Source: Bdellovibrionota bacterium
GTDB taxonomy: Bacteria; Bdellovibrionota; UBA2428
Assembly (NCBI GenBank): GCA_035539375.1
Contig: DATLIP010000010.1
Span: 6,364-70,363 of the forward strand
DNA length: 64,000 nucleotides
Direction: 5' to 3'
Shown: one piece after another, positions 4,261 to 60,301 of the stretch
Layout: each line of letters opens with the position of its first letter
Position numbering within the stretch: position 1 is the stretch's first letter
Position numbers and translations under genes: made by a program
The notes under the pieces: generated by a model
The model's database searches: none
Seen by the model: only the letters and a program-made list of their open reading frames with translations
What the model was told of the DNA's origin: nothing

Positions 4261-4303
4261 AAAAAAAACCCCCGCTTCGAGGAGACTCGAAGCGGGGGTT
4301 TTT
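4261..4303. terminator. Bidirectional rho-independent terminator
   Basis: A8 tract, stem CCCCCGCTTCGAG (4269-4281), loop GAGA, stem CTCGAAGCGGGGG (4286-4298), then T5. It works on both strands, directly 3-prime of rpsA. Confidence 0.75.
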
Positions 4304-19339: not shown

Positions 19340-19417
19340 AAAAAGAACCTAGTTCCTTAACCCCGTACCTTTTGGGTGCCAGGTTATGGTAGCGGGTTAA
19401 GGAACTAGGTTCTTTTT
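19340..19417. repeat. Perfect 24-nt inverted repeat with 30-nt loop (palindrome family, site c)
   Basis: AAAAAGAACCTAGTTCCTTAACCC (19340-19363) and its exact reverse complement (19394-19417). The loop carries GGGTGCCAGGTTATGG. The right arm encodes the last codons and stop of addA. Confidence 0.9.
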
Positions 19418-34703: not shown

Positions 34704-35243
34704 ATGCGTCATTACACGTTCGCAGCGAAGTTTTTTTTAAGCACTTGGGTCTGTGCGTCAGGCCTCGTTTTTGCCCAGACCAAGGGCGATTTGGTTTCGC
34801 CCGGTCGCGACGTCTACCACAATAACAGTGCTGCTGGCTCGTCCGACAAAGAAGACGCTCCCAAGGTTGAGTTCACCTCGCGAGTTTCTTTCAAAAAAGG
34901 CGAGTACCAACTCCCCGCCGGAGAGACTTCCAACAATCTCGTGCGTCACATGATCGACCACAGTTTCCAAGCGACGGAAGTGGGTGCCAATTCCGGTGGC
35001 ACCAATTTTGGTACCTACGCGGGTTTCGTCAAGTGCGATGTGCTGCGAGACGGCGCGGCCGTGACGAGCTCAAATTGCGTGGTCTCCAAAGAACCGCCCG
35101 TAGGCTTCTCGTGCTCCACGGGTGCCGTTCAGGGAGTGACGGATCACTCTAATGTTGAACCGACCCTGCTACCCCGACGTGGCGTGAGCGGCAATGTCCA
35201 GTCTATGCCCAGCACGGGCGGCGTTCCTCGTAAAAAGAACTAG
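34704..35243 (+). CDS. Small secreted protein, function unknown
   Basis: GGAGGA at 34692-34697, then ATG 34704. Signal MRHYTFAAKFFLSTWVCASGLVFA|QTK. Confidence 0.5.
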   Translation: MRHYTFAAKFFLSTWVCASGLVFAQTKGDLVSPGRDVYHNNSAAGSSDKEDAPKVEFTSRVSFKKGEYQLPAGETSNNLVRHMIDHSFQATEVGANSGGTNFGTYAGFVKCDVLRDGAAVTSSNCVVSKEPPVGFSCSTGAVQGVTDHSNVEPTLLPRRGVSGNVQSMPSTGGVPRKKN

Positions 35244-36214
35244 GCCAGACCGATCTCTCGCAGACGCTCCTGCAAATACTCACCCGCAGTCGTGTCGGGA
35301 TCACGCTGAGGCGTGGTGTTCGACACGGTCTGCGGCAGCGCTTTGAGCGACATTTCCGAAACCGGATGCAAAAAGAAGGGAACCGAGAGGCGCGACTCGC
35401 GCAGCTTCTGAGGATCCTTGGGGTTCACCACTTGATGCGTGGTGCTGACATAGTAGTAATTTGTGAGACGCTGGAGCATGTCGCCCACGTTGATCACGAT
35501 CTCGTCGGCCTTGGTCTGCACCGGAATCCATTCTCCCGAACGGCTCTTGGCTTCGAGCCCCGGGTTCGAGGCGCCGATGAGCAGCGTGATGAGGTTGATG
35601 TCTTCGTGCGGCGCCGAGCGCAGCGCCTTGGCCTCCACGTTGGCCGAAATCGGCGGGTAATGTATCGGGCGCAAAATGGAATTTCCATAGCGCACGTACT
35701 CGGTGAAATACTCAGGGTCGAGCTTCAACGAAATCGCCAGCGCGCGCAGCACGTCCATGCCGAGATCCAGCAGACCTGAATAAAGATTTCTCAGTGTCGC
35801 ATCGAATTCGGCGACGTCCGGAACGCTCACGTTCTTGGGATAAGTCTTGGCGAGGGGATTGTCTTCGGGCACATCCACACCGACGTGGTAAAACTCTTTG
35901 AGGTCGCCCACGTTGTGATTCTTAGCGTGTTCTTTGCCAAAGGGCGTGTAGCCGCGCGCGCCGCCGATGCCGGGTACGTGGTACTGCATCTTGGTGGCTT
36001 CGGGCAGGGCGAAAAAGCTGGTCATCGCCGAGTAGGATTTTTCTTGCAGCTCATGCGAGATGTTGTGACCTTTGATGATCACAAAGCCAATGTCGCGAAA
36101 CGAGGCCTGCAGATTTTCGACGAAGGCGGATTTTTTGGCCGCGTCGTCTGAGTAGAAATCGCGGATGTCGAGCGTTTTGATTCCGGGTACGTAATTTGAG
36201 GTCGATGCGTTCAT
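35240..36214 (-). CDS. 2-oxoglutarate/Fe(II)-dependent oxygenase (isopenicillin-N-synthase-like family)
   Basis: RPIHYPPI, H-x-D in APHEDINLITLL, distal His in STTHQVVNP, and RLSVPFFLHP. Start MNASTSNY (ATG 36214) with GGAGGA 12 nt upstream. Confidence 0.8.
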   Translation of the reverse strand: MNASTSNYVPGIKTLDIRDFYSDDAAKKSAFVENLQASFRDIGFVIIKGHNISHELQEKSYSAMTSFFALPEATKMQYHVPGIGGARGYTPFGKEHAKNHNVGDLKEFYHVGVDVPEDNPLAKTYPKNVSVPDVAEFDATLRNLYSGLLDLGMDVLRALAISLKLDPEYFTEYVRYGNSILRPIHYPPISANVEAKALRSAPHEDINLITLLIGASNPGLEAKSRSGEWIPVQTKADEIVINVGDMLQRLTNYYYVSTTHQVVNPKDPQKLRESRLSVPFFLHPVSEMSLKALPQTVSNTTPQRDPDTTAGEYLQERLREIGLA

Positions 36215-36237
36215 GGGCTTGGTCTCCTCCTCTGGAG

Positions 36238-36299
36238 GGTTCCAGGAACCTATACCTGGCACCTCTTCCGTGAGGTGCCAGGTATAGGTTCCTGGAACC
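36238..36299. repeat. Perfect 28-nt inverted repeat with 6-nt loop (palindrome family, site a)
   Basis: GGTTCCAGGAACCTATACCTGGCACCTC (36238-36265), loop TTCCGT, exact reverse complement (36272-36299). It lies 24 nt upstream of the oxygenase ATG in a divergent intergenic region. Confidence 0.9.
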
Positions 36300-36348
36300 A
36301 CTGCGAACAACTAAAAAAAGCTAAACAGGCTCATTTTATTAAGAAAAA

Positions 36349-36473: not shown

Positions 36474-37115
36474 ATGAAGGAGTGCATCAACATCATGAAA
36501 ATCAAATCTTCGATCAAACGCCTTATCAAGGGCTCGTGTCTCACCGCTGGACTTTCCATGGTTGTGGGCGCTCAGCTCCATGCTTTTTCTGTGCAAGATC
36601 GTGAATACGATTGGTACCAAGACCGCGGTGGCGATTGCTGGTTCTTCGGCAAAACCGCTAGCGACCCCCTCTGCCGTAGCACCACCGACACCTCGACCCC
36701 CAAAGTGGTCACCAGCACCCGCGATGCGGCGGCTACGGTTCCCGCTCCGATCTCCCTGGATTCGGGAGGTCTCTTTGAACTTAATAGCGCCGAACTCCGC
36801 CCCAGCTCCAAAGCCAAGGTGGTAGAGATCGCCAAGAAAATCAAAAACGAAAAACCCAACGCCCGAGAGCTTTCGGTGACCGGCTACGCCGACCCCACGG
36901 GGCCTTCGTCGCTCAACCAAGAACTCTCGGAGCTTCGAGCGCAGAGCGTGAAAAATGTCCTCGTCGAAGAGGGCGTGCGTTCGTCGAGCATCAAAACCGA
37001 TGGTCGGGGTTCGCAGAACGCCGTGGTGCCCCTGAACAAGTGTGAGGGCAAAACTGGCAGCGCGCTTTCTGGCTGCCTCGCCCCCAATCGCCGCATCGAA
37101 GTCGATGTGCTGTAA
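36474..37115 (+). CDS. OmpA-family peptidoglycan-binding protein
   Basis: C-terminal OmpA-like domain LSVTGYADPTGPSSLNQELSELRAQSVKNVLVEEGV ... NRRIEVDV. Signal-like MKIKSSIKRLIKGSCLTAGLSMVVGAQLHA (alternative start ATG 36495). Confidence 0.8.
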   Translation: MKECINIMKIKSSIKRLIKGSCLTAGLSMVVGAQLHAFSVQDREYDWYQDRGGDCWFFGKTASDPLCRSTTDTSTPKVVTSTRDAAATVPAPISLDSGGLFELNSAELRPSSKAKVVEIAKKIKNEKPNARELSVTGYADPTGPSSLNQELSELRAQSVKNVLVEEGVRSSSIKTDGRGSQNAVVPLNKCEGKTGSALSGCLAPNRRIEVDVL

Positions 37116-39542: not shown

Positions 39543-39569
39543 AGGTGCCAGGTATAGGTTCCAGGAACC
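39543..39569. repeat. Single-arm copy of the site-a palindrome (site b)
   Basis: AGGTGCCAGGTATAGGTTCCAGGAACC is 26/27 identical to the right arm at 36273-36299. It retains the internal mini-palindrome GGTTCCAGGAACC and is followed by T5 on the plus strand. It sits 3 nt from the DHS-like stop codon. Confidence 0.85.
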
Positions 39570-39572: not shown

Positions 39573-40553
39573 TTACCAGCCCAGCAGGTAGGCAAACATC
39601 AGCGGGGCGACGATCGTGGCGTCCGACTCGATGACGTGCTTGGGCGTTTTCACGCCGAGCTTGCCCCAGGTGATCTTCTCGTTGGGCACGGCGCCCGAGT
39701 AGGAGCCGTAGCTCGTGGTGGAGTCCGAGATCTGGCAGAAGTAGCCCCACAGCGGCACGTCGTTCAGCTCAAGATCTTGGTGCAGCATAGGCACCACGCA
39801 GATCGGGAAATCGCCCGCGATGCCGCCGCCGATTTGGAAGAAACCGATCGACGAGTTTTTGCTCGCCTCTTGGTACCAGGTGGCAAGTTCCATCATGTAC
39901 TCGATGCCGCCCTTTACGGTGAGCGGGTTTTTGACTTCGCCCGTGATGCAATACGAGGCGTAGAAGTTCGCGGTGGTGGAGTCTTCCCAGCCGGGCACGA
40001 AGATCGGCAGGTTCTTTTCGCAGGCGGCGATGAGCCACGAGTCTTTAGGATCGATGTCATAGGAGGGCTTCAGGCGGCCCGAGCGGATGATCTTGTAGAG
40101 GATCTCGTGCGGAAAGAAGCGTTCGCCTTTTTTGTCGGCGGCGAACCACTCTTCTTTGAGGGCCACTTCGAGGTGACGCATGGCTTCGCCTTCGGGAATG
40201 CAAGTGTCGGTGACGCGGTTCATGTGACGCTCTAGCAGGTTTTGCTCATCTTGCGGGCTGAGGTCGCGGTAGTGCGGCACGCGCACGTAGTGCGAGTGCG
40301 CCACGAGGTTAAAAAGGTCTTCTTCGAGGTTGGCGCCCGTGCAGGAGATGCCGTGCACTTTGCCCTGGCGAATCATCTCGGCGAGCGATTTGCCCAGCTC
40401 CGCGGTGCTCATGGCACCGGCGAGGGTGACAAACATCTTTCCGCCCTTTGCGAGGTGCTCTTCGTAGCCCTTGGCGGCGTCCACTAGCGCGGCGGCGTTG
40501 AAGTGTTTGTAGTGGTGCAGGAGAAATTCGCTAACGGGGCCTTTTTTGGTCAT
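39573..40553 (-). CDS. Deoxyhypusine synthase-like (homospermidine-synthase-like) protein
   Basis: LLHHYKHFNAAALVDAAKGYEEH, TLAGAMSTAELG and ISCTGANLEEDLFNLVAH match the DHS family signature layout. About 326 aa. Confidence 0.8.
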   Translation of the reverse strand: MTKKGPVSEFLLHHYKHFNAAALVDAAKGYEEHLAKGGKMFVTLAGAMSTAELGKSLAEMIRQGKVHGISCTGANLEEDLFNLVAHSHYVRVPHYRDLSPQDEQNLLERHMNRVTDTCIPEGEAMRHLEVALKEEWFAADKKGERFFPHEILYKIIRSGRLKPSYDIDPKDSWLIAACEKNLPIFVPGWEDSTTANFYASYCITGEVKNPLTVKGGIEYMMELATWYQEASKNSSIGFFQIGGGIAGDFPICVVPMLHQDLELNDVPLWGYFCQISDSTTSYGSYSGAVPNEKITWGKLGVKTPKHVIESDATIVAPLMFAYLLGW

Positions 40554-40555: not shown

Positions 40556-43500
40556 CTATTTACCTCGGGGATTCTTATATAGAGCCCGCGCTCGCTTTTC
40601 AACCGCCGCGGCCTTGGGATTTTGAGGAGTGCAAATGTCATTGGGTAGCCAGAATTTGTAGCCGTGTTTGGCGAGGTGAACGCCATAGCGGCTAAAGAGC
40701 TGCGCGGCGCTGTCGTGGTCGAAAGACCCCAGTTGGTTTGACGCAAAACCATTCGTGTTGAAGGAGGCCTGGTCGGAGCTGATGCCGGTCAGAGCTAAAA
40801 TCGGGTTATTGTGGCCCGGACAGTTCAACGTCGAAAGCACGTCGATACCTTCGGGGTGTTGGTTGAACTCGTTGCCGATGGTGAGGTTTGACTTGGGCGA
40901 GGGGGCAAAGTGAAAGTTCGGACTCAGGGGCTGGGATTCGACAAAGCGCTCTCCTTTCATTCTCCAAAGCGCCGAGGTCGCATTGATCACGCCCATGCTG
41001 CCCGGCCGATTGAGGATGATGGATTCGTTGGCCATTTGGCCGGTGTAAAAGACTCCGGGAATTTTTTGAAGAGCTTCCAGTCGGTTCTCGGCGTTGACTT
41101 TGACAAAGACCGTCTCCAGTTTCGAAAAATCCGGTTCACCGTAGCTCGTGACGTAGTAGCCGGGGTGCTGAAGCATGGACGTCGAAAATGGCAGCCCGTC
41201 GAAGACCATGCGATCGGTAACATGGAACTCGTTGTCGAAACTCAAGAATTCGTGAACGTCTCCGTACTGTCGCTGCCAGAGATTCGCTCGCAGCGGCTGG
41301 TAGACGCCTTTGGTCCACTGGGTGACCTTGCCATTGGTCTTTTCGTAGGCGAGGGGAGGGACTTCCACGTCGTCGCACTCGAGCTCGCAATTGTAAAAGA
41401 TCAGGTGCGAGCCGGTGTCGTAGAGTGCTGCGTAGTTGCGAAAGCGGGCGTCGACTTTTTCGAAGCCTAGGTGCGGACGGTGGGAGTCGAAGACGTAGAG
41501 CTCGTTTTGCTCGTCACGCATGAGTCGCGAGGTGTGGGCGTTTTTTAGCACCAGGGCTAGGTTTTGAGGCTTGAGCGAGTCGATGAGCTCCAGTGCGGCG
41601 TTTTGCCTATGGTAGAGGCGAAGTTCGGTGCCTATCGCAACGAGAAAATAAGGGTCGTTCGCTTCGATAAAGACGGGGGTAGATCCCGGCGCCAGGCTTT
41701 CGGGAAAAGCCCAAGTCATTTCGGCTCGCTCGGGCGCACTCATTTTGGCGAGATGCGTGCCATCGAGAATGGCCCAGTTTCCGTCGAGGCTGAGGGTGGT
41801 CCAGCGATGAAAAGGCGTGGGCGGTGTCAGGCTTTGACCATTGTCGAAATGCTTCATCTGACCGGAATTCAGGTCGAGCAGGAAGTGCGTGTCGCTAAGG
41901 ATCTGCCGGCTACCCGGAGTGAAGACACGATGCTTGTAGGAATCTTTGGTGGCCCAACGCGCGTGAGCGTCTTTGGCAGAAGAAGACCAGAAGGCAAAAT
42001 TTTCAAAAACTTCCTCGTAGTTCTGGAGCGGAACGGTGGGGATCTGGACGGGCGTCTCGCGGAGCGAGCGGTAGAAGTGCTGGCGGAATGTCTCTCCCCA
42101 CATGGAGAAGGAGTCGGTGGTGCCTTTGACGAGCGAGCCGATCGTGTTGTCGAGGGAAGCCGAAACGGCGGACTTTTGCACCCGCTCGGCCCGGCGTTCG
42201 AGGAAAGGTTTCAGCGCTTCGGCAATCTTGCGAGCACTGATGCTCGGGTCGAGGCCCCAGCGAATCTGCGGGGGATCTTTGGGATCGGACGAATAAAGAT
42301 TGCGACGAAAGATGGCCGCTGCAGCTAGCATCGAAACGGATTCGCCCTCGACGTTGAAGGTTTCTTGGTGAAAGTTTTTCACCAAGTCGCCGCACTTGTT
42401 GCAGAGGCTAAGGATGGCGTCAGAATTGCCCAGGTGTTCGGCGATGCGGCCGTCGCGGCTGGGGGTGCTCCAGTCGTCGTAGTTTTTGGAACCCGGAGGG
42501 CAGGGGTTGCTTTTGCAAAATGCGTAACCCTCGGCCACCACATTCACGCGCTCGAGGATCTGTGCTTTGATGTCGCTGACGATTTGGCCCGCTACTTTGA
42601 CAACATCAAAGGAGGGATCGAGTTTCTTGACGAGCGCCAGACCAAAGTTCTTTTCGCTACCAAAGAAGTCTTTGGAGTACTGATCGAGCGAAAACCACGG
42701 GTGCGTGGAAGCTTCGCGCAGCGAGCCGGATTGTGGCCAGCGCATGCGCACAAAACCACTGGTCTTGGGATCTGTGGGCTGTTCCCCCCAGTAAAAATGC
42801 GCGCTCACTTTGCGAATCGCACGCGGAACGGTCGAAGAAAAAAGCATGAAAGGCAAGCCGAAGGCATTGCCCGAGGATCTGTAGATGTACTGAGTGTGGC
42901 CCGTGGTGCCGCGAATGACGACATGGTAGGAGCCGGCGCTAAAGGCCTCGGTAGTGATGGCCACGGGGTAAGAGTCGCGCAGCAAGGTGTGCGTGTAGGT
43001 GTTGTTCATGATGTAGTCGAGGGCGGCGCGCAGGCGGCGATCTTTTGCCCAATCGGGATGGGTGGGCAGGCGGCTCCACTCAGAGCGCATGTGCTGGTTG
43101 GTGAGCAACTGTCCTGAGCCGGCAAGGCGGTTGGCGGCTGGCAGGCTGTGCAAGCGCGCGAAGACCCATCTCAGCACGTAGGCGACGTCGGCACAGTCGG
43201 TGGCGATTTGGTGTTTGACGAAAAAATTCTCGTCGACGTTCGCGACGATCCACTTGGAGAACTCGAGCTCCCAGTGGGAATCCCATTCGCGCGTGGCTTT
43301 CCAAAGCGGCTCCGCGGCCGCATCCATTGGCGGGGCAATGAGCGGCCGGCTCTGCGCGGCCACGGCGGGGGCGTTGCTACGGGTGTACTTGGTGTGGAGA
43401 TATTTTTGCGCCTGCTCGTAAGATTCAAAGTTTTGCGTGCGCTCGCGATCTTGCCAGCCGTCGCGGGCGATGCGAAATTCGTCTAGGGTGAGCACCCCTT

Positions 43501-43633
43501 CGGAGAGGTGCAGTATGGCGAAGGCGTTTTGCGGACCTCGGTAGAACTCTTCGGTGCTCGGGGCGGCGACTGCCGTGAGACTCAAAAGGCTAGATAAAAA
43601 AAGAATGACGGAGTGGCGAGAAATCCATTTCAT
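40556..43633 (-). CDS. Large secreted protein (1025 aa), function unknown
   Basis: Signal MKWISRHSVILFLSSLLSLTAVA|APS. The N-terminal region has DCADVAYVLRWVFAR ... GSYHVVIRGTTGHTQYIY, a weak Cys...His papain/NlpC-P60-like pattern (speculative). The stop is 2 nt from the DHS-like start. Confidence 0.5.
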   Translation of the reverse strand: MKWISRHSVILFLSSLLSLTAVAAPSTEEFYRGPQNAFAILHLSEGVLTLDEFRIARDGWQDRERTQNFESYEQAQKYLHTKYTRSNAPAVAAQSRPLIAPPMDAAAEPLWKATREWDSHWELEFSKWIVANVDENFFVKHQIATDCADVAYVLRWVFARLHSLPAANRLAGSGQLLTNQHMRSEWSRLPTHPDWAKDRRLRAALDYIMNNTYTHTLLRDSYPVAITTEAFSAGSYHVVIRGTTGHTQYIYRSSGNAFGLPFMLFSSTVPRAIRKVSAHFYWGEQPTDPKTSGFVRMRWPQSGSLREASTHPWFSLDQYSKDFFGSEKNFGLALVKKLDPSFDVVKVAGQIVSDIKAQILERVNVVAEGYAFCKSNPCPPGSKNYDDWSTPSRDGRIAEHLGNSDAILSLCNKCGDLVKNFHQETFNVEGESVSMLAAAAIFRRNLYSSDPKDPPQIRWGLDPSISARKIAEALKPFLERRAERVQKSAVSASLDNTIGSLVKGTTDSFSMWGETFRQHFYRSLRETPVQIPTVPLQNYEEVFENFAFWSSSAKDAHARWATKDSYKHRVFTPGSRQILSDTHFLLDLNSGQMKHFDNGQSLTPPTPFHRWTTLSLDGNWAILDGTHLAKMSAPERAEMTWAFPESLAPGSTPVFIEANDPYFLVAIGTELRLYHRQNAALELIDSLKPQNLALVLKNAHTSRLMRDEQNELYVFDSHRPHLGFEKVDARFRNYAALYDTGSHLIFYNCELECDDVEVPPLAYEKTNGKVTQWTKGVYQPLRANLWQRQYGDVHEFLSFDNEFHVTDRMVFDGLPFSTSMLQHPGYYVTSYGEPDFSKLETVFVKVNAENRLEALQKIPGVFYTGQMANESIILNRPGSMGVINATSALWRMKGERFVESQPLSPNFHFAPSPKSNLTIGNEFNQHPEGIDVLSTLNCPGHNNPILALTGISSDQASFNTNGFASNQLGSFDHDSAAQLFSRYGVHLAKHGYKFWLPNDICTPQNPKAAAVEKRARALYKNPRGK

Positions 43634-43662
43634 AGATGTGAGTACTCTAGTGCGGGATCAAA

Positions 43663-44175
43663 TTACGGACTGAAGAGGCCGTAGCCGCCGATGCCCTGCG
43701 TGGGGCCGAGATCGATGAACTCGAACTTGAGTTCGCTGACTCCGGCCTTCGCGGTGCCCAGGTAGAGCCTCGCGTAAGCTTCGGTAGAGAGCGACACGTC
43801 GGCGTCGTCGGCGAGCTTGGCAAAGGACGCTTCGTCGATTTCGAGTTGAGCGAAGGGAATCGGAGTGCCCGCTTTGGCGATGGCGCGCATCTGGCCGGCC
43901 TTCACGCTCGAATCTTCGAACTCGGCGACTTCGTCGGTGATGTCAAAGTCGAGGGTTTTGCTGCCCTTGGCGTAGGCTTTGGCGAGATCCTTGGGCGCAA
44001 TGGATGCGCAGGCGAGCAGGGTTTCTTTGAGGCAGTGGCCATCGCAGCTCTCGTCGCCCATCTCGAGGCTCAAGAGGTGCGGTGTGGCTTTGAGCGATGC
44101 GCAGGGGTTTAGCGTTTTCGCTTGGGTCGTTAGGCCCACGGATAAAGTTCCGATAATAAAAAACAAGTTCTTCAT
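43663..44175 (-). CDS. Small secreted protein, function unknown
   Basis: GGAGGATGG upstream of ATG 44175. Signal MKNLFFIIGTLSVGLTTQA|KT. Four Cys in the first 50 mature residues. Confidence 0.5.
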   Translation of the reverse strand: MKNLFFIIGTLSVGLTTQAKTLNPCASLKATPHLLSLEMGDESCDGHCLKETLLACASIAPKDLAKAYAKGSKTLDFDITDEVAEFEDSSVKAGQMRAIAKAGTPIPFAQLEIDEASFAKLADDADVSLSTEAYARLYLGTAKAGVSELKFEFIDLGPTQGIGGYGLFSP

Positions 44176-44285
44176 ATCCCATCCTCCATGATGATTTTTT
44201 AGATCGTTTTCATGACTAGCGCGTGCCCGAGCCAAGTCAATTTTCTTTGACTTTTGTCGCGGCCTCTCATTAGGGTCACCGCATC

Positions 44286-45140
44286 ATGGTTTTCAAAATT
44301 TTGGCATGGAGTTTGGCCATGGGAATGAGTTTGGCGACATCGGCCATGACGCCATTTTCGCCAAGGTGTTCGGCGGTCCTTGCTCACGTGGAACTCGTCC
44401 CCCCTCTTCGTCGTCCCCCATCGCGGGAAGAAGCGTGGATGAGGGATGCTGCTAAGAGCTTCGCCCGTCAGGTACCCACGGGTGCGTTAAACGCTCGCGC
44501 TGAGCAGCTACTTCACGAGCCGGTAGATATTCTTGGAGGGCGTGCATGGCGCGAGATCGACGACTCCGATGGCCTGGTAAAACCACTCCGGATTCAAATA
44601 CATTTCTTTCCGCTGGCTCCTATGAAGCGTCTCATGACAGAGCTTTGGAGTATTCCCTACTTTCAAAGGCTGCTTGATACGGAGCAGCTCAATGAGATCA
44701 AAAAACATCGACGGCTTACCTTGAACTTTCACATCGTAGAAGAAGAGGGTTTTAACGATCTTAAAAATTTGATCGAGTCTTTGAATTCCAATGTAGATGT
44801 CTATCAAGTGGATTACGAGTTGGGTGAGGTGTCGTTGCTGTTTGCAAAATTTGATAACAACATGAAGCAGTGGATGATCTCCCGTTTTGTGGACCCGGGA
44901 AAAGCGATGAATCCTAAAGAGATGGCCGAATTTACCTTTTCAACCTCAACACCGGCTTCGTTCTTCGCTGAACTTCGAAAAATGACGGAGACTTACGGTT
45001 TAAAGTACGAATTCCTAGGCGATTATCATTCGCGTTCACGCAGTGTGCGGATGCGCGCCGATGTTTTTAACATTTACCAAATTGCGGGGATGACGCGCGC
45101 CACTTATTCGATGCTCCGTGGACCCAAGTTATCAAAATAA
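44286..45140 (+). CDS. Hypothetical protein with signal-like N-terminus, in a low-GC segment
   Basis: MVFKILAWSLAMGMSLATSA. Three 60-nt lines counted by hand (44641-44820) give 45%, 40% and 32% G+C, against 55% for line 45361-45420. Confidence 0.45.
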   Translation: MVFKILAWSLAMGMSLATSAMTPFSPRCSAVLAHVELVPPLRRPPSREEAWMRDAAKSFARQVPTGALNARAEQLLHEPVDILGGRAWREIDDSDGLVKPLRIQIHFFPLAPMKRLMTELWSIPYFQRLLDTEQLNEIKKHRRLTLNFHIVEEEGFNDLKNLIESLNSNVDVYQVDYELGEVSLLFAKFDNNMKQWMISRFVDPGKAMNPKEMAEFTFSTSTPASFFAELRKMTETYGLKYEFLGDYHSRSRSVRMRADVFNIYQIAGMTRATYSMLRGPKLSK

Positions 45141-45144
45141 AAAA

Positions 45145-45175
45145 AGCCCTCCCACGCAGCAAGCGTGGGAGGGCT
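45145..45175. terminator. Bidirectional rho-independent terminator
   Basis: AGCCCTCCCACGC (45145-45157), loop AGCAA, GCGTGGGAGGGCT (45163-45175). Flanked by an A-run upstream and TTT downstream, between convergent genes. Confidence 0.75.
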
Positions 45176-45189
45176 TTTGCGTTTGGGGT

Positions 45190-46998
45190 TTAGAGCAAGC
45201 GCAGCGCGGGATTCAGAATCTCGCCGCCGCGTTCGATCGACGGGACGTTCGGATGGTGAATGCGGATGCCGTTCGAGTGCTGGCGGTAGTTTTCTACCGA
45301 GGTCAGAGTCATCTTTGACTCCATCAGCGGGTTCAGCGGCAGCACGATCTCGGCCTTGTCGACGAGCTTCGAGGTAAACGAATCCGCCATAACGAGGGCC
45401 TTGGCTTGCGACAGGTAGTACGCAAAGGTTTCGTCGAGTGGGCGGGCGTTGGTTTGGCCGAAGTAGAAGACAGGACCTTTAGGCGTTTTGCCTTTGAGGA
45501 ACTGCGACTGGGCTTCGACAGGCACGATGCCTTCGTTCAGGAGGCCGCGCGAGTTAGGGTTCGTCCACGCGATGAGCACTTTGGCTTCAGGGGCGATCTT
45601 CTCGAGCGCTTTGAGTTCGTCTTCGGTGCGCGGCACAGGCACGATCCAAGCCGTAGACTCATTAGCTTTGGTTTTGGCGAGCGAATCCCAATCGGCTTGT
45701 TTCCAAGCGATCTGACCGGCGCGGATCTTTTGGCCGAGCTTGAGGCTCAAGATGGCGAGCACGTTCTCGAGTTCGCGGTAGTCGGCCCAAGGGCTGACGA
45801 TGGTCTTGATGCCTTCCCACTTGGCCTCTCCAGCGAACCACGGCGAAGCGGCGCGCGTTTTCCAGTACTCCATGAAGCGTTTGCTCCAGGTAGATTCGTT
45901 GATCGGGGCGACCTTGCGGCCGCGCTCGTTCCACGAGCCGAAAATTTCTTTGGCCCAGGCGATCTCTTCGTGAGGAGTGTTATCGGATACCCAGAATTCC
46001 CAGGTGGCGCCCTCAAAGTTTTGCGCGATGTTTTCGAGCTTGAGCTGAATCTCTTTGAGCGAGGTGGGCACGAGCGATTCGCCTGCCGCACGGCGAGCCA
46101 TGGGGGAGGCCAAGCGGTTGGCGAGCTCGTTGTGGTAGTGGTAACCCCAGCGACCGCGGTCGCACATCCACCACTGGTTGAGGTCGAGGTTCTCGCGCGG
46201 AACAATGCGCACGAGTTCGGGCACGGGTGCGAGGTGGTCGGGTCGTTCGATGCCCGGGTGACGGTGCTTGGTGTGCAGCTCGATGTTGCAACCGCTCGAA
46301 CAGCCAGTGCAAATGCCTTCGTGTTTCATCAGTTCCCAGGGACGCGCGACAAAGCGGTAGTCCTTGGCAGTGAGCGCGCCCACGGGGCAGAGATCCACCA
46401 CGTTGCCGCTAAAGGGAGTGTCAAAGGGTTTGTCTTCGAAGACGTCGATGACGTTCTCGCTGCCGCGGTTGTTGACCACGAGCTGAGCACGGCCGTCGAC
46501 TTCGCTAGAGAAACGTACGCAGCGCGTGCACAGGATGCAGCGCTCTTGGTCGAGCACGATGGTGTCGCCCAGTGAGTAGTGTTTTTTAGACTCACGCTTG
46601 TCGTCCACGAGGCGCGACGAGGGCAGACCATGGTCGTAGGTGTAATCTTGGAGCTTGCACTCACCGCCGCGATCGCAAATGGGGCAATCGAGGGGGTGGT
46701 TCAGGAGTGTGAATTCGAGCGTGGAGTTTTGGCCGGCGATGACCTTCTCCGATTGCGTGAGCACTTTCATGCCCGGCGCGACGGGAGTGGAACAGGCGGT
46801 GGCAAGCTTGGGCATGCCTTCGACTTCCACAAAACACATGCGGCACTGACCCGCGATCGAAAGACCCGGGTGGTAGCAGAAGTGCGGAATCGTTTTGTGC
46901 ACTTGTTCGGCGGCGGTGATCACTTTGGTGCCCGGCGGAACCGAAACTTCGATGCCGTCGATGCTGAGGGTAACTAGGTTTGGCTTGTTTTCACTCAT
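45190..46998 (-). CDS. nuoG: NADH-quinone oxidoreductase subunit G-like (short form, 602 aa)
   Basis: 2Fe-2S region HFCYHPGLSIAGQCRMCFVEVEG...ACSTPV; HPLDCPICDRGGECKLQDY; CILCTRCVRF; CPVGALT; extra CTGCSSGCNIELHTKH. The C-terminal half is divergent. Confidence 0.85.
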   Translation of the reverse strand: MSENKPNLVTLSIDGIEVSVPPGTKVITAAEQVHKTIPHFCYHPGLSIAGQCRMCFVEVEGMPKLATACSTPVAPGMKVLTQSEKVIAGQNSTLEFTLLNHPLDCPICDRGGECKLQDYTYDHGLPSSRLVDDKRESKKHYSLGDTIVLDQERCILCTRCVRFSSEVDGRAQLVVNNRGSENVIDVFEDKPFDTPFSGNVVDLCPVGALTAKDYRFVARPWELMKHEGICTGCSSGCNIELHTKHRHPGIERPDHLAPVPELVRIVPRENLDLNQWWMCDRGRWGYHYHNELANRLASPMARRAAGESLVPTSLKEIQLKLENIAQNFEGATWEFWVSDNTPHEEIAWAKEIFGSWNERGRKVAPINESTWSKRFMEYWKTRAASPWFAGEAKWEGIKTIVSPWADYRELENVLAILSLKLGQKIRAGQIAWKQADWDSLAKTKANESTAWIVPVPRTEDELKALEKIAPEAKVLIAWTNPNSRGLLNEGIVPVEAQSQFLKGKTPKGPVFYFGQTNARPLDETFAYYLSQAKALVMADSFTSKLVDKAEIVLPLNPLMESKMTLTSVENYRQHSNGIRIHHPNVPSIERGGEILNPALRLL

Positions 46999-47016: not shown

Positions 47017-48723
47017 TTAGCGGTCAATTTCACCGAGCACGGGGTCGAGGCTCGCCACGGTGGTGACGACGTCCGCGATGATGTTGCCCGGAACGATTTC
47101 TTGGAGCACCTGGATCGAGCGGAACGCGGGGCTATGGATGTGCACGCGCGAGGGCTGATTGGTGCCGTCGGATTTGATAAAGAAGCCGAATTCCCCTTTG
47201 GGGTTTTCGATCGCCGAGTAGACTTGGCCCACTGGGGGTTTGAAGCCTTCGGAGATGATCTTGAAGTGCCAGATCAGCGCTTCCATCTCGGTGTAGATCT
47301 CTTGTTTGGTGGGGATCACCACTTCGGGCACGTCGGCGTTGACGGGGCCCGAGGGCAGGTTGGCGATGGCCTGGTTGATGATCTTGATCGACTCTTTCAT
47401 CTCGAGGATGCGCACGAGGTAACGGTCGTAGGCGTCGCCGTTGGTGCCCACAGGCACGTTGAAGTCGAAATCTTTGTAGGCCATGTACGGCATGTCTTTG
47501 CGCAGATCCCAGTTCACGCCTGAGGCGCGCAGGTTGGGACCAGTGACGCCGTAGCGAATGGCGGTGTCTTTGTTGATGACGCCCACGCCGCGTGTGCGGT
47601 CGATCCAAATGCGGTTGTTGGTGAGCAGACCTTCCATCTCGTCCAGAGTTTGCGGCAGCTGCTTGAGGAACTCAGTGAGACCGTTCAAGAAGTCTTTAGA
47701 GGCATCGCGCGAGACGCCACCCACGCGGGTGTACGAAGTGGTGAAGCGGTGACCGGCGAGTTTTTCGATAAGGTCGTAGATCTTCTCGCGCTCGTCGAAG
47801 GTGTGGAAGAATACAGTGCCGGCGCCCACGTCGAGGGCGTAGGTGCCCATCGAGAGCAAGTGCGCCGAGATGCGCGCCAGCTCGCAGGCGATGATGCGGA
47901 TGTACTGTGCGCGCTTGGGCGTTTCGATACCCAGGAGCTTCTCGACGGCGAGCGTGTAGCTCACGTTGTTCGAGAGCGGCGCCATGTAGTCGAGGCGGTC
48001 GGTGTAAGGGATGAACTGGTGGTAGCGTTTGTTCTCGGCGATCTTTTCAAATCCGCGGTGTAGGAATCCGATGTCCGGAACGCACTGGAGCACCGTTTCA
48101 CCGTCGATCTCAAGCATCAGGCGCAATACGCCGTGCGTGGACGGGTGCTGTGGGCCCATGTTCAGAATCAGCGTGTCGCTGTTCTTGGCTTTGATAGGGG
48201 TTTCGGTTTCGGGCATCGAAATGTCTGGCTGCATTTCCGAGCGCAGCGTGGGGCGCGTGCCCTTGTCGCGGCGGATGCGTTTTTGCACCGTCATGAGCGC
48301 TTGCAGGAGCGCCTCGGGTCGCGGCGGGCAACCGGGCACGTAAACGTCTACGGGAAGCACGTGGTCGAGGCCCTGCACCACAGGGTAGGAGTCGAACATG
48401 CCGCCCGTGCAAAGACAGGTGCCCATGGCGATGACCCACTTGGGTTCCATCATTTGGTCGTAAATACGGCGCACCACGGGCGCCATTTTGTAGGTGAGCG
48501 TGCCGGCGACGAGCATGAGGTCCGCTTGGCGCGGCGAAAAGCGCAGCACTTCGGAGCCAAAGCGCGACATGTCGTACTTGGGACCTACGGTGGCCATCAT
48601 CTCGATCGCGCAGCAGGAGATGCCCATCGGCATCGGCCATACGGAGTTCGAACGGCCCCAGTTGATGAGGTCGTCTAGGCGGGTGGTGATAATCGATTCG
48701 CTGAGTTTAGCTTCAAGACCCAT
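47017..48723 (-). CDS. Fused NADH-quinone oxidoreductase subunits B and D (no NuoC segment)
   Basis: NuoB part: [46 protein letters not shown] linker of roughly 35 aa. NuoD part: [18 protein letters not shown]...[12 protein letters not shown]...DRLDY... ending [12 protein letters not shown] 48723 preferred; the track start at 48744 is TTG. Confidence 0.85.
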
Positions 48724-48740
48724 GAGTAATTTATTACACC

Positions 48741-49100
48741 TCAAACGGGCTGGTGGCGACTCTCGTTTTCGTTAATATCTTCGAGTTCCGCGGGGGAGTC
48801 TGACTGCATTTGGTAGGATTTTAAGAGTCGATCAAGACGCTTTAAAACGTGCTCGTTGTACTCGAGTTTGGCGATCAGGCGCTCCGCTTCGATGGGCATG
48901 GGGCCCTTGTCGAAAACACGGCTGCGTGTGAGTTCGCCGAGCTGTTGGTAGAGGCGGCGCTCCTTTTTTTGAAGCTGTGCAGCATCCCACAGGGTTCGGG
49001 CAATGCGACCCGCGCGCGAGAGCTCCGCGAGGCTGGGGGCGATGAGTTTGCGGGATTGGGTGGCGACGCGGCGGACGAAAGACTTGTCGGGATTTGCCAT
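48741..49100 (-). CDS. Small hydrophilic coiled-coil protein, function unknown
   Basis: 119 aa with no TM segment and heptad-like segments ([38 protein letters not shown]). The stop lies 17 nt upstream of (or overlaps) the nuoB-D start. Confidence 0.4.
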
Positions 49101-49140: not shown

Positions 49141-49194
49141 TACCCGTCCCCGCGGTAGCTGGAACTAAAGTTCCAGCTACCGCGGGGACGGGTA
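49141..49194. repeat. Perfect 25-nt inverted repeat with 4-nt loop (palindrome family, site e)
   Basis: TACCCGTCCCCGCGGTAGCTGGAAC (49141-49165), loop TAAA, exact reverse complement (49170-49194). Confidence 0.9.
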
Positions 49195-49252
49195 GCGAAG
49201 CGATAGCCGTCTTGGGACGGGTAGCGAAGCGATAGCCGTCTTGGGACGGGTA
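49195..49252. repeat. Perfect 2 x 29-nt tandem direct repeat abutting the palindrome
   Basis: GCGAAGCGATAGCCGTCTTGGGACGGGTA at 49195-49223 and again at 49224-49252. Each unit ends with the same GGGACGGGTA that ends the palindrome arm. Confidence 0.9.
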
Positions 49253-49806: not shown

Positions 49807-49972
49807 GTGGTGGATCCTCCCAAATGATGGATACCGCTTGAGATTTGCGCCCGCGAGCATTGACGGCTCGGCGCAAATGCCGTAAATCCATCTCTCCTTA
49901 GTTTACCAAACTAGGGTGTGTTGTGGGATTTGGAGCCGTCACTTCGCTGGCGCTTTGACCCACCAAAGTCGT

Positions 49973-50059
49973 GCCGAAGTGGCGGAATTGGTAGACGCAG
50001 TGGATTCAAAATCCACCGTCCGTTAGGGCTTGAGAGTTCGAGTCTCTCCTTCGGTACCA
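49973..50059 (+). tRNA. tRNA-Leu (anticodon CAA), type II with long variable arm, CCA encoded
   Basis: Folded by hand. Acceptor GCCGAAG/CTTCGGT (G1:U72 wobble), D-arm GCGG-AATTGGTAGA-CGC, anticodon stem GTGGA/TCCAC with loop TTCAAAA, variable arm CGTCCGTTAGGGCTT, T-arm GAGAG-TTCGAGT-CTCTC, then A-CCA. 87 nt. Confidence 0.9.
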
Positions 50060-50210: not shown

Positions 50211-50264
50211 CAAAAGTTGGATGTCAAGGGACCCGCTTCGCGGAGTCCCCGTACAAAATTAGAA

Positions 50265-57423: not shown

Positions 57424-57476
57424 AGCCGTTTCGAGCCTAGGACCTAGTCCAAAATGCTCCCTGACGCACGCAGAAG

Positions 57477-57534
57477 GTACCGGGTTAAGGTAACGGATAC
57501 CTTTCAGAAGGTATCCGTTACCTTAACCCGGTAC
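57477..57534. repeat. Perfect 27-nt inverted repeat with 4-nt loop (palindrome family, site d)
   Basis: GTACCGGGTTAAGGTAACGGATACCTT (57477-57503), loop TCAG, exact reverse complement (57508-57534). Followed by TTTAACCCGTCCCC. Confidence 0.9.
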
Positions 57535-57766
57535 TTTAACCCGTCCCCAGGGTGACGAAAGTTTTTACAGTCGGTGCCGCTGGTGGGCCCAAGAGCGTTT
57601 GACTCCTGAGTTTTTAGGGCGATGGCGAAGGGGTCCCTGAAAATACCCATAAAAATCATACTCTTGAAGGGTGGGGACCCTGCTTATTACCCTGGCATGG
57701 TCCCTGCTTTACCAGCTCCAAAGGGTTCTGCGTGACCCGCTTGAATGGTGATGAGGTAGATTTGAG

Positions 57767-60292: not shown

Positions 60293-60301
60293 GGGCCCAG
60301 A

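What the first reader, a model, noticed from the sequence alone, without database searches (positions are those of the whole stretch)
36238..36299. Five sites carrying very long perfect palindromes (one a single-arm copy) linked by shared sequence modules
Seen in the sequence, by site. (a) 36238-36299: 28-nt arms GGTTCCAGGAACCTATACCTGGCACCTC, 6-nt loop. (b) 39543-39569: a single-arm copy, 26/27 identical to the right arm of (a). (c) 19340-19417: 24-nt arms AAAAAGAACCTAGTTCCTTAACCC, 30-nt loop. (d) 57477-57534: 27-nt arms GTACCGGGTTAAGGTAACGGATACCTT, 4-nt loop. (e) 49141-49194: 25-nt arms TACCCGTCCCCGCGGTAGCTGGAAC, 4-nt loop. Every arm pair is an exact reverse complement. The arms differ between sites but are chained by shared modules. 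GGTGCCAGGT occurs in a, b and the loop of c. CCTTAACCC-N-GTAC occurs in c and d. ACCCGTCCCC flanks d and opens e. GGAAC/GTTCC occurs in a, b, c and e. Sites a and d lie in divergent promoter regions where no terminator is expected, and none has a clean T-tract on the relevant strand. Simple rho-independent termination therefore does not explain them. Inference: a REP/BIME-like or MITE-like mosaic repeat family, or recognition sites for an unidentified DNA/RNA-binding or nicking protein.
Basis: partly seen in the sequence, partly recalled or inferred. Interest (0 to 1): 0.7.

Follow-up and report, generated by a model that had tools for sequence, protein, structure and literature searches.

The report
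REP/REPIN palindromes with a RAYT partner
The five long palindromes are copies of a short repeated DNA element (REP/REPIN type) scattered between genes of an uncultured bacterium; elsewhere in what is probably the same genome, the same element brackets a domesticated transposase gene (RAYT), so this is a real but already known kind of system.

Summary
All five sites exist exactly as described, and they are far beyond chance. They form one family, built from in-phase 13-nt units (about GGTNSCNGGNWNN, derived from GGTACC-N-GGTACC).

The a/b arm (GGTGCCAGGTATA+GGTTCCWGGAACC) occurs nearly unchanged at 16 further places on 14 contigs of JGI metagenome Ga0247823. Those contigs match the window in composition. 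The copies occur as singlets, tail-to-tail doublets (like site a) and head-to-head 39-nt palindromes, almost always between genes.

In locus L008 a perfect 28-nt inverted repeat of this arm brackets a 181-aa HUH/Tyr transposase. Its best matches are the REP-associated tyrosine transposase family and E. coli TnpA_REP (PDB 4ER8). Orthologous RAYTs in two relatives are also bracketed by inverted arrays of the same 13-nt unit. A weight matrix trained only on one relative's RAYT flanks finds exactly sites a, b, c and d in the window: 7 arrays against 0.1 expected.

Distant syntenic relatives lack the element at a and b. At site e they carry a rearranged palindrome made of the same units.

It is a new member of a known kind, of moderate to low interest. 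No RAYT lies in the window, and mobility and mechanism are inferred.

The parts
36238..36299 (.). Site a: a REP doublet (REPIN-like, tail-to-tail). Layout: GGTTCCAGGAACC TATACCTGGCACC TC - ttccgt - GA GGTGCCAGGTATA GGTTCCTGGAACC. It starts 24 nt upstream of the ATG (36214) of the minus-strand 2OG-Fe(II) oxygenase, just downstream of a promoter-like box that is conserved in relatives.
   Evidence: 28-nt perfect arms; both arms are found by a weight matrix trained on a foreign RAYT's flanks; the same 28-nt inverted repeat brackets the RAYT gene in L008; the element is absent at the orthologous site in L022 and L023; dG -36.7 kcal/mol.
39544..39569 (+). Site b: a REP singlet (units GGTGCCAGGTATA + GGTTCCAGGAACC) followed by TTTTT. 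It lies 3 nt after the stop codon of the deoxyhypusine-synthase-like gene (39573-40553, -).
   Evidence: absent in L022 and L023; present but diverged (21/26) in L026, a population about 88% identical in DNA.
19340..19417 (.). Site c: an asymmetric REP doublet. The right side is three in-phase units, GGTGCCAGGTTAT GGTAGCGGGTTAA GGAACTAGGTTCT (19375-13). The left arm is the inverted copy of the last ~1.5 units. A and T runs flank it. The stop codon of the UvrD/PD-(D/E)XK helicase ORF (19397-22363, -) lies inside the right arm.
   Evidence: No second copy of the whole arm in ~270 kb; dG -29.6 kcal/mol.
57474..57548 (.). Site d: a REP doublet (arms GGTACCGGGTTAA GGTAACGGATACC) plus one further in-phase unit, GGGGACGGGTTAA, read on the minus strand at 57536-57548. 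It lies in the divergent region between the 480-aa ORF and the S8 peptidase.
   Evidence: TRF reports a 13-nt period at 57515-57543; arm plus extra unit recur as single copies at L010:13665-13704 and L018:1136-1175; dG -34.4 kcal/mol.
49141..49194 (.). Site e: a REP doublet with arms AGTTCCAGCTACC-GC-GGGGACGGGTA, between the OMP beta-barrel gene (49264-49860, -) and the first nuo gene (48741-49100, -).
   Evidence: the copy at L011:8508-8561 has 2 substitutions per arm, mirrored on both arms. L022 and L023 carry a palindrome of the same units in the opposite arrangement at the orthologous site. The weight matrix does not find it; the link to the family is the GGGGACGGGTA unit.
49185..49252 (+). 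A 29-bp tandem array (x2.3) of GGGACGGGTAGCGAAGCGATAGCCGTCTT, overlapping the right arm of e. It is an accessory module of the e-type element.
   Evidence: TRF, 100% matches; one copy of the unit accompanies the e-type palindrome in L011.

Best explanation
The five sites are members of a REP/REPIN-type family of interspersed extragenic palindromic repeats. Their partner enzyme is a RAYT, a domesticated IS200-like HUH/Y1 transposase encoded elsewhere in what is probably the same genome.

The building block is a 13-nt quasi-palindromic unit (about GGTNSCNGGNWNN, derived from GGTACC-N-GGTACC). Two or three in-phase units make one 'arm' (a REP). An arm alone is a singlet (site b). Two inverted arms a few bases apart form a hairpin-forming doublet (a REPIN: sites a, c, d, e).

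Site a has the same layout as the RAYT locus with the gene removed. This is what is expected of a non-autonomous derivative of the RAYT's own ends.

Inferred mechanism, by analogy with E. coli TnpA_REP and IS608: the RAYT dimer recognises the folded repeat in single-stranded DNA at the replication fork. It cuts and rejoins next to it through a 5'-phosphotyrosine link. This spreads or maintains copies without target-site duplications.

Once in place, the hairpins sit in 5' UTRs (a, probably d) and 3' ends (b, c, e). There they may secondarily affect mRNA stability or read-through.
For: Shown:

1. The a/b arm is multi-copy. An exact 22-mer search found 16 stretches on 14 contigs of JGI metagenome Ga0247823, none overlapping the window. 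They hold about 27 copies, nearly all exact, in three configurations.
2. Those contigs match the window's tetranucleotide usage (r 0.91-0.97). Unrelated contigs of similar GC give 0.57-0.71.
3. The automatic rule places 41 of 43 unit arrays at gene edges or between genes. The other two, on inspection, lie after a terminator (L009) and upstream of the true panD start (L006).
4. L008:1880-2425(-) encodes a 181-aa protein that matches:
   - Pfam Y1_Tnp: 23.6 bits, cut-off 23.
   - NCBIfam NF047646, REP-associated tyrosine transposase: E 2.8e-15.
   - In the PDB, at E <= 0.1 with the profile, only 4ER8 TnpA_REP: E 0.002-0.009.
   - The NHYH and YRYxxxNP motifs are conserved in its relatives.
   - Its nearest database relatives are named 'REP element-mobilizing transposase RayT'.
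5. That gene is bracketed by a perfect 28-nt inverted repeat of the a/b arm.
6. Orthologous RAYTs are also bracketed by inverted arrays of the same 13-nt unit. These are P0122 (59% identical, in a syntenic position on a 2.73-Mb contig, L024) and P0121 (63%, L025). TRF reports a period of 13, with 5.8 and 6.5 copies.
7. A weight matrix trained only on the L025 RAYT flanks finds exactly sites a, b, c and d in the 64-kb window and nothing else: 7 arrays against 0.1 expected, maximum 1 in 50 shuffles.
8. A second RAYT paralogue (L021:1-372) is flanked by a sequence matching the arms of another 28-nt perfect palindrome at L007:8259-8315.
9. Substitutions are mirrored on both arms of the e palindrome when the window, L011 and L022 are compared. 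The same is reported for REPINs (PMC3116915).
10. No target-site duplications flank any doublet.
Against: - No RAYT gene lies in the window (tblastn best E 0.12).
- The link between the window and L008 rests on identical repeats and matching composition, not on an assembled genome.
- The NCBIfam score (56.5) is below the curated equivalog cut-off (80). The Pfam score is barely above its cut-off.
- The near-perfect identity of the a/b copies is partly an ascertainment effect, because they were fetched with an exact 22-mer.
- The c arm has no second full copy in ~270 kb.
- Site e is not found by the weight matrix.
- The canonical unpaired GTAG tag is only partly present: ATAG in most a/b copies, GTAG next to the RAYT and inside many units.
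- A single 13-nt unit cannot fold on its own (6-bp stem, 1-nt loop), so what the enzyme actually recognises is unknown.
- No excision or insertion event was observed, and no transcript data exist.
Confidence: 0.8

Rival explanations
1. The palindromes are independent RNA-level elements: intrinsic or bidirectional terminators, or mRNA-stabilising hairpins. Each evolved in place, and the sequence similarities are coincidental.
For: - Site c has flanking A and T runs like the canonical bidirectional terminators at 4264-4303 and 45142-45178.
- Sites b, c and e lie downstream of genes.
- Singlet copies are often followed by TTTT.
Against: - Sites a and d lie between divergent genes, and no terminator-like site is scored there.
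- The T run after singlets is on the strand antisense to the upstream gene.
- Identical arms occur at more than 16 unrelated loci.
- A weight matrix from a foreign RAYT's flanks picks out a-d.
- Secondary terminator or stabiliser roles remain possible, but they do not explain the origin.
Confidence: 0.04
2. They are MITEs: internally deleted derivatives of a DDE-type insertion sequence, mobilised by its transposase through terminal inverted repeats.
For: - Tail-to-tail doublets look like two terminal inverted repeats with a minimal interior.
- A DDE transposase gene sits near the e-site in relative L022.
Against: - No target-site duplications flank any doublet.
- The same arm also occurs head-to-head and alone.
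- The gene bracketed by the arms is a Y1/HUH RAYT, not a DDE enzyme.
- The L022 transposase is not flanked by the units.
Confidence: 0.03
3. The 13-nt palindromic units are double-stranded binding sites for a host protein, for example a nucleoid-associated or dimeric regulator, or a DNA-uptake-signal-like system. They are kept exact by selection. The RAYT association is incidental, or the RAYT only trims them.
For: - The unit GGTACC-N-GGTACC has the symmetry of a dimer binding site.
- A single unit is too short to fold alone.
- Copies are unusually exact.
- The same intergenic sites are occupied in relatives by rearranged versions.
- Uptake sequences in Neisseria and Haemophilus also occur as inverted pairs after genes (general knowledge).
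Against: - Three orthologous RAYT genes in three organisms are each bracketed by lineage-specific variants of the unit. This is the defining signature of REP-RAYT co-evolution (PMC5581495, PMC3116915).
- No candidate binding protein is known.
- The exactness is partly an ascertainment effect.
Confidence: 0.07
4. Only single arms are spread (by the RAYT or otherwise). The perfect palindromes arise afterwards, by replication template switching or hairpin-templated repair that copies one arm into an inverted partner. On this reading the doublets are not the mobile unit.
For: - Arms stay perfectly complementary beyond the unit core into variable bases next to the loop: TC, T, TAAC and C in different copies.
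- Sub-modules form their own small perfect palindromes (L011:3937-3963, L010:13739-13774, L027 downstream of rpsA).
- Variants differ between loci but never between the two arms.
Against: - The RAYT locus itself has the doublet layout.
- REPIN theory explains mirrored changes by selection on the hairpin (PMC3116915).
- No intermediate, imperfect young doublets were seen.
- This rival concerns a sub-step and is compatible with the main explanation.
Confidence: 0.1

Closest known systems
REPIN-RAYT systems of Pseudomonas fluorescens SBW25 and other Proteobacteria (Bertels & Rainey 2011, PMC3116915; Bertels et al. 2017, PMC5581495)
   Same: - A short extragenic repeat occurs as singlets and as inverted doublets that fold into hairpins.
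- The most abundant repeat flanks a RAYT gene in inverted orientation.
- There are several RAYT/REP pairs per genome.
- The RAYT sits in a syntenic position in relatives, suggesting vertical inheritance.
- Changes are mirrored on the two sides of the hairpin.
   Different: - Here the two REPs of a doublet are 0-9 nt apart (30 nt in site c), against about 70-110 bp in SBW25, so the whole element is one perfect 24-30-bp stem.
- The REP is an array of 13-nt units rather than one 20-25-nt imperfect palindrome.
- The host is a probable Bdellovibrionota-like uncultured lineage.
- The RAYT is only distantly related: the E. coli TnpA_REP match has E about 0.002-0.009.
E. coli REP/BIME elements and TnpA_REP (Ton-Hoang et al. 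2012; Messing et al. 2012, PMC3479197, PDB 4ER8)
   Same: - Clusters are mosaics of different short motifs, as at L011:8480-8620, L018:1087-1176 and L010:13665-13800.
- The HUH/Y1 enzyme is the only solved-structure match at E <= 0.1 with the profile.
- HUH and Tyr motifs are conserved.
- The location is extragenic, often at 3' ends.
   Different: - There is no sequence similarity to PU Y/Z motifs.
- The GTAG tag is not consistently present as an unpaired 5' tail.
- The arms pair perfectly, whereas PUs have mismatches.
- Biochemistry is untested here.
GTAG-tagged REP superfamily, including the Opitutus terrae GTAG-17/19 dimers spaced by 1-2 bp and the Thauera 5-bp-stem REPs (Di Nocera et al. 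2013, PMC3733652)
   Same: - Head-head, tail-tail and head-tail dimers, singletons and tandem clusters all occur.
- Dimers can have almost no spacer.
- Stems can be very short.
- REP ends supply or overlap stop codons: L021 (a TAG from TAGGTTCC, read from the sequence) and window site c.
- The repeats are associated with transposase genes.
   Different: The tag is ATAG in most a/b copies. GTAG occurs next to the RAYT and inside many units (GGTAGC...). The periodic 13-nt array structure is not described there, as far as I read.
IS200/IS605 insertion sequences (IS608, ISDra2)
   Same: - They use a Y1 HUH transposase.
- The ends are subterminal hairpins.
- There are no target-site duplications.
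- They supply the single-strand mechanism that the proposal borrows.
   Different: Those elements carry their own transposase in every copy and are multi-copy as whole elements. Here the enzyme gene looks single and fixed in place, and only the ends are multiplied.

Membership tests
REP/REPIN-RAYT system | A short palindromic or inverted-repeat sequence present in many copies per genome | tested here: met
   The a/b arm has 3 copies in the window and about 27 more on 14 other contigs of matching composition. The d and e arms recur 1-2 times each in ~200 kb. The window, an unbiased 64-kb sample, has 5 sites, or about 1 per 13 kb. The whole-genome count is not available.
REP/REPIN-RAYT system | Predominantly extragenic location | tested here: met
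   The automatic rule puts 41 of 43 unit arrays at gene edges or between genes. The other two are extragenic on inspection. Site c overlaps the last 7 codons and the stop of a helicase ORF.
REP/REPIN-RAYT system | The same repeat flanks a RAYT gene in inverted orientation | tested here: met
   L008 has a perfect 28-nt inverted repeat of the a/b arm, 572 nt apart, around the 181-aa ORF. The same holds for orthologues in L024 and L025 with lineage-specific unit variants. This was not found inside the window itself.
REP/REPIN-RAYT system | The partner protein is a Y1/HUH tyrosine transposase of the RAYT type | tested here: met
   - PF01797: 23.6 bits against a cut-off of 23.
- NF047646: E 2.8e-15, but 56.5 bits against a cut-off of 80.
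- The only PDB hit at E <= 0.1 with the profile is 4ER8 TnpA_REP.
- NHYH and Y115/Y121 are invariant in 4 relatives.
- Neighbours are named RayT.

Caveat: the score is below NCBI's equivalog threshold, so this is a distant member.
REP/REPIN-RAYT system | The RAYT is single-copy per type and vertically inherited | tested here: inconclusive
   The syntenic position in L008 and L024 (a 257-258-aa gene upstream, an IMPDH-like gene downstream) supports vertical descent. The copy number per genome cannot be counted without the genome. A second, divergent paralogue exists in L021.
REP/REPIN-RAYT system | Inverted doublets that fold into hairpins (REPINs), with changes mirrored on both arms | tested here: met
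   Sites a, c, d and e fold at -30 to -37 kcal/mol (-53 kcal/mol for e together with its tandem array), with z of -9.7 or lower. The e variants in the window, L011 and L022 differ from one another but are mirrored on both arms.
REP/REPIN-RAYT system | A conserved unpaired GTAG (or CGTC) tag at one end | tested here: inconclusive
   Most a/b copies read ATAG-GTTCC-W-GGAAC. GTAG-GTTCC occurs next to the RAYT (L008) and in L007. GTAG lies inside the commonest unit, GGTAGCGGGTACA. It is not a consistent unpaired tail.
REP/REPIN-RAYT system | Mobility: insertion and excision polymorphism, RAYT-dependent cleavage | not testable with these tools
   The evidence is only indirect. Sites a and b are empty in distant relatives L022 and L023. 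Site b is present but diverged in an ~88%-identical population. Three same-strain contigs from other samples are identical at the sites they cover.
MITE (DDE transposon derivative) | Terminal inverted repeats plus target-site duplications, and a matching autonomous insertion sequence | tested here: not met
   No direct repeats flank any of 9 doublets. The bracketed gene is a Y1 enzyme.
Intrinsic (rho-independent) terminator | A GC-rich hairpin followed by a U tract, downstream of a gene on the transcribed strand | tested here: not met
   No terminator-like site is scored at a or d, which lie between divergent genes. For b the T run is antisense to the upstream gene. Only c has A and T runs on both sides.
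Known RNA families (Rfam 15) | A match at or above a family's gathering score | tested here: not met
   The only match in the window is tRNA-Leu at 49973-50056.

The most novel reading that the evidence does not exclude
The family may be an unusual array-type REP. The unit of recognition would be a 13-nt GGTACC-N-GGTACC-derived mini-palindrome that cannot fold alone. The RAYT ends would be tandem arrays of up to 7 such units. Perfect zero-spacer palindromes would be made by copying one arm onto the other, by RAYT-primed or replication fold-back, rather than by transposition of a fixed doublet.

The same intergenic slots (OMP-nuoA, downstream of rpsA) are occupied across species by rearranged versions. 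That persistence would then point to a host-level role, for example 24-28-bp duplex RNA as RNase III or decay signals in 5' and 3' UTRs.
Probability: 0.15. Interest if true: 0.6.

Novelty: new member of a known kind. Interest (0 to 1): 0.33.

Why it matters
It extends REP/REPIN-RAYT systems to an uncultured lineage where I found none described. That lineage is probably Bdellovibrionota-like. A literature search on Bdellovibrio plus RAYT gave only irrelevant hits.

It offers a compact example with three features: a modular 13-nt unit, near-zero spacers, and at least two RAYT/REP pairs.

There are practical consequences.
- These repeats may break metagenome assemblies; one same-strain contig ends about 200 nt from site d.
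- They create spurious ORF extensions. The longest-ORF listing runs the 2OG-oxygenase ORF through site a, and a gene caller called a 51-aa ORF over site d.
- They can supply stop codons (site c).

Biologically, insertions in the 5' leaders of a 2OG oxygenase and next to an S8 peptidase are candidates for altered expression.

It does not change current understanding of how such systems work.

Tried and rejected
- **GTDB genome search.** An exact 19-mer of the a/b arm searched in 185,579 representative genomes gave only 4 hits. All were coding or chance matches in unrelated taxa. The source species is therefore not in that collection, and the genome-wide count could not be made.
- **Rfam.** At gathering thresholds it found only a tRNA.
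- **Promoter and terminator scans.** Sigma-70 and terminator consensus scans at a and d found nothing at the palindromes.
- **RAYT in the window.** tblastn of the RAYT against the window found no copy.
- **De novo k-mer catalogues.** Catalogues with k of 11-12 were swamped by coding-sequence repeats. I replaced them with targeted fuzzy matching and a unit weight matrix.
- **Strain-level variants.** Exact-protein look-ups for sites d and e found either nothing or contigs 100% identical to the window.
- **Target-site duplications.** I looked for them and found none.
- **Taxonomy.** The deoxyhypusine synthase gave no taxonomic signal, being about 77% identical across several phyla. Ribosomal protein S1 gave best named hits in Bdellovibrionota at 58-63%. 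The taxon remains tentative.
- **The hairpin at 4210-4257.** I considered it as a family member. Its core, GGCGCCAAGGCAC, matches the unit consensus at only 8 of 13 positions by eye, so I left it out.
Full report
**1. Observation**

All five sites are present at the stated coordinates.

- Site a (36238-36299): 28-nt perfect arms and a 6-nt loop.
- Site b (39543-39569): a single copy of a's right arm, 26/27 identical.
- Site c (19340-19417): 24-nt perfect arms and a 30-nt loop.
- Site d (57477-57534): 27-nt perfect arms and a 4-nt loop.
- Site e (49141-49194): 26-nt perfect arms and a 2-nt loop.

None of 300 Markov shuffles reaches their counts. No shuffle of the 40 tested contains a perfect hairpin with arms of 16 nt or more, whereas the window has 7. 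As single-stranded DNA the doublets fold at about -30 to -37 kcal/mol, and e with its tandem array at -53 kcal/mol. The z-scores run from -9.7 to -13.3.

Two corrections are needed.

- The GGAAC pentamer is not enriched: 108 occurrences against about 143 expected.
- Site e carries an attached 29-bp x2.3 tandem array at 49185-49252.

Two are ordinary A-tract/T-tract bidirectional terminators (4264-4303 and 45142-45178). One is a separate repeated palindrome (4210-4257).

**2. Gene context**

Pfam scans place the sites as follows.

| Site | Position relative to genes |
|---|---|
| a | Between a 2OG-Fe(II) oxygenase (35240-36214, -) and an OmpA-family gene (36474-37115, +) |
| b | 3 nt after the stop of a deoxyhypusine-synthase-like gene (39573-40553, -) |
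| c | Over the stop codon of a UvrD/PD-(D/E)XK helicase (19397-22363, -) |
| d | Between a 480-aa ORF (55981-57423, -) and an S8 peptidase (57767-58966, +) |
| e | Between an OMP beta-barrel gene (49264-49860, -) and the first nuo gene (48741-49100, -) |

So a and d do lie in divergent regions. The consensus scans score no terminator at either.

**3. The arms are a genuine multi-copy repeat**

The source species is not among the GTDB representative genomes: a 19-mer search gave only chance or coding hits.

In JGI metagenomes, an exact 22-mer of the a/b arm hit 16 stretches on 14 contigs. All came from one sample (Ga0247823), and none overlapped the window. These contigs match the window's tetranucleotide usage (r 0.91-0.97). 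That is like known same-strain pieces (0.955-0.985) and unlike unrelated contigs of similar GC (0.57-0.71). I infer that they come from the same genome or a very close one.

They hold about 27 copies of the arm, nearly all exact, although the fetch used an exact 22-mer. The copies take three configurations.

- Tail-to-tail doublets like site a, with loops of 0-4 nt in these contigs (6 nt at site a).
- Head-to-head 39-nt palindromes centred on GGTTCC-W-GGAACC.
- Singlets like site b.

Other arms recur too.

- The d arm with its flanking ACCCGTCCCC recurs as a single copy at L010:13665-13704 and L018:1136-1175.
- The e palindrome with one 29-bp unit recurs at L011:8489-8561.

The arrays lie almost always between genes (41 of 43 by an automatic rule; the other two on inspection). 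They often sit directly after a stop codon or next to a canonical terminator.

**4. The partner gene**

In L008 the arm occurs twice, 572 nt apart, as a perfect 28-nt inverted repeat. Between the copies lies a 181-aa ORF. It matches the following.

- Pfam Y1_Tnp: 23.6 bits, cut-off 23.
- NCBIfam NF047646, 'REP-associated tyrosine transposase': E 2.8e-15. The score of 56.5 bits is below the equivalog cut-off of 80.
- Among solved structures, at E <= 0.1 with the profile, only E. coli TnpA_REP, 4ER8: E 0.009 alone and 0.002 as a profile. The single-sequence search also lists three weaker, unrelated chains at E 0.04-0.5.

The HUH motif (NHYH) and the tyrosines of YRY(I/V)AxNP are invariant among its relatives. 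A profile search of 1.84 billion representatives finds 8,288 relatives at E <= 0.001 but only 34 at E <= 1e-30. The named ones among the closest are called 'REP element-mobilizing transposase RayT'.

The layout is 5'-GGTTCCTGGAACC TATACCTGGCACC-[RAYT]-GGTGCCAGGTATA GGTGCCAGGTATA GGTTCCAGGAACC-3'. This is site a with a gene in the loop.

**5. Co-evolution in relatives and the 13-nt unit**

Two orthologous RAYTs were found.

- P0122 (59% identical) lies on a 2.73-Mb contig of a 46%-GC relative, in the same gene neighbourhood as in L008.
- P0121 (63% identical) lies on a short Logan contig.

Both are bracketed by inverted arrays of a 13-nt unit. TRF reports a period of 13 with 5.8 and 6.5 copies in L025. 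The two arrays form an 87-nt inverted repeat at 78%.

All window sites parse into the same units in phase.

- a and b: GGTGCCAGGTATA + GGTTCCWGGAACC.
- c: GGTGCCAGGTTAT GGTAGCGGGTTAA GGAACTAGGTTCT.
- d: GGGGACGGGTTAA AGTACCGGGTTAA GGTAACGGATACC.

TRF independently reports a 13-nt period in d.

A weight matrix trained only on the 13 units flanking the L025 RAYT finds exactly a, b, c and d in the 64-kb window and nothing else. That is 7 arrays against 0.1 expected, with a maximum of 1 in 50 shuffles.

Site e escapes this matrix. Its GGGGACGGGTA unit nevertheless sits in phase next to the a/b arm (L015) and next to the d arm (window, L010, L018). It also resembles the GGGGTCGGGTATA unit that flanks the RAYT in L024.

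A second RAYT paralogue (L021:1-372, 32% identical) is flanked by a sequence that matches the arms of yet another 28-nt perfect palindrome, at L007:8259-8315. The genome therefore has at least two RAYT/REP pairs.

**6. Orthologous sites**

- The 46%-GC relatives L022 and L023 are syntenic with window 35-50 kb.
- They lack the element at a and b.
- At a, the palindrome in the window follows directly after a promoter-like box conserved in the relatives (TTAGCTTTTTTTAGTTG). It would therefore sit in the 5' leader of the oxygenase mRNA; this is an inference.
- At e, the relatives carry a different perfect palindrome: GTTCCAGGTACCAAAGGGACGGGTAC, a 9-nt loop, then its complement. It is built of the same units in the opposite arrangement.
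- A population about 88% identical in DNA (L026) has a diverged copy of the arm at b, 21/26 identical.
- Downstream of rpsA, an ~85%-identical relative (L027) has a small AGGTGCCAGG palindrome where the window has the 4210-4257 palindrome.
- Three same-strain contigs from two other samples are identical to the window at the sites they cover.

So some slots are old and persistently occupied while their content turns over. Variant arms differ between loci or species, but never between the two arms of one palindrome.

**7. Mechanism**

Shown:

- A family of extragenic, hairpin-forming, multi-copy repeats.
- The arms bracket RAYT genes in three organisms.
- No target-site duplications.

Inferred from the E. 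coli TnpA_REP and IS608 literature (PMC3479197; PMC3116915; PMC5581495):

- The RAYT dimer recognises the folded repeat in single-stranded DNA and cuts and rejoins beside it through a phosphotyrosine link.
- Doublets are the replicating unit, and singlets are their remnants.

Not known:

- What the enzyme recognises, since one 13-nt unit cannot fold alone.
- Whether doublets move as units or are made in place by copying one arm.
- Whether the hairpins act on transcripts.

**8. Comparison and verdict**

The system works like, and by the tests available is a member of, the REP/REPIN-RAYT kind. Three features are shared with the GTAG-type REPs described by Di Nocera et al. (PMC3733652): near-zero spacers, head-head and tail-tail dimers, and REP ends that overlap stop codons.

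It differs in three respects.

- The periodic 13-nt unit arrays.
- The inconsistent GTAG tag.
- The host lineage, probably Bdellovibrionota-like. This rests on ribosomal protein S1, whose best named hits are 58-63% identical, and is tentative.

It is not a DDE-type MITE, not a set of independent terminators, and not a known Rfam family.

Novelty: a new member of a known kind. Interest: moderate to low.

Noticed in passing
window 4210-4257 (with 4264-4303): A 22-nt-arm perfect palindrome, AAAGGCGCCAAGGCACTTTTTG, lies downstream of rpsA, next to a canonical bidirectional terminator. It is itself a repeat. The outer stem GGCGCCAAGGCACTT recurs at L014:1878-1928 and L015:1539-1583 with different inner stems and loops, each perfectly paired. 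In relative L027 the same slot holds an AGGTGCCAGG palindrome instead. It may be another REP class; no RAYT link was seen.
   Followed up: partly
window 49973-50250: tRNA-Leu(CAA) is followed by two partial duplications of its 3' end (TCTCCTTCGGTACCA at ~50118; CCTTCGGTA at ~50193). The tRNA and its first duplicate are each followed by a small ATTCGGGC..GCCCGAAT hairpin; the second is flanked by GGGACTCCGCTTCGCGGAGT-type inverted repeats. This looks like scars of old integrations at the tRNA. The ORFs listed at 49589-49891 and 49911-50213 are probably spurious.
   Followed up: no
window 19397-19423: The last 7 codons and the stop codon of the 988-aa UvrD/PD-(D/E)XK helicase ORF are encoded by the right arm of repeat c (...K K N L V P stop). 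The repeat may have replaced the native 3' end.
   Followed up: no
window 46102-46150: Seven of the 8 differences between the window and the 99.96%-identical ENA contig (L001) cluster within 49 nt of the nuoG-like gene. This suggests a short recombination or conversion tract rather than scattered mutation.
   Followed up: no
L007:2872-2967: The a/b arm sits inside a 70-bp unit that is tandemly duplicated together with its flanks (CACAGACGCGAAGATTTAGAATAATTG + arm). This is the ordered-cluster arrangement also described for REPINs.
   Followed up: no
L021:1-372 and L007:8259-8315: A second, divergent RAYT paralogue (32% identical, cut by the locus end) has a 5' flank (CTCAAAGGTGTGTCCGTGC) that matches the arms of a separate 28-nt perfect palindrome. 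This indicates a second RAYT/REP pair.
   Followed up: partly
window 62165-63595 and 58857-61375 (L028 genes): An HMG-CoA reductase is accompanied by GHMP-kinase and diphosphomevalonate-decarboxylase-like genes. This is a mevalonate pathway cluster, which is uncommon in bacteria.
   Followed up: no
window 47017-48744: A single 575-aa ORF carries both NuoB (Oxidored_q6) and NuoD (Complex1_49kDa) domains. This fused complex I subunit is conserved in relatives L022 and L023.
   Followed up: no
window 40556-45140 versus L022:8127-10000: The window has three extra genes (1025, 190 and 284 aa; the 1025-aa one has no Pfam match and the other two were not scanned) between nuoG and the deoxyhypusine synthase gene. 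The 46%-GC relatives lack them.
   Followed up: no
window 36215-36310 and 57504-57659: The repeats distort gene calls. The longest-ORF call runs the oxygenase 32 codons upstream through palindrome a. A public gene call in the same-strain contig L028 places a 51-aa ORF over the right arm of d.
   Followed up: no
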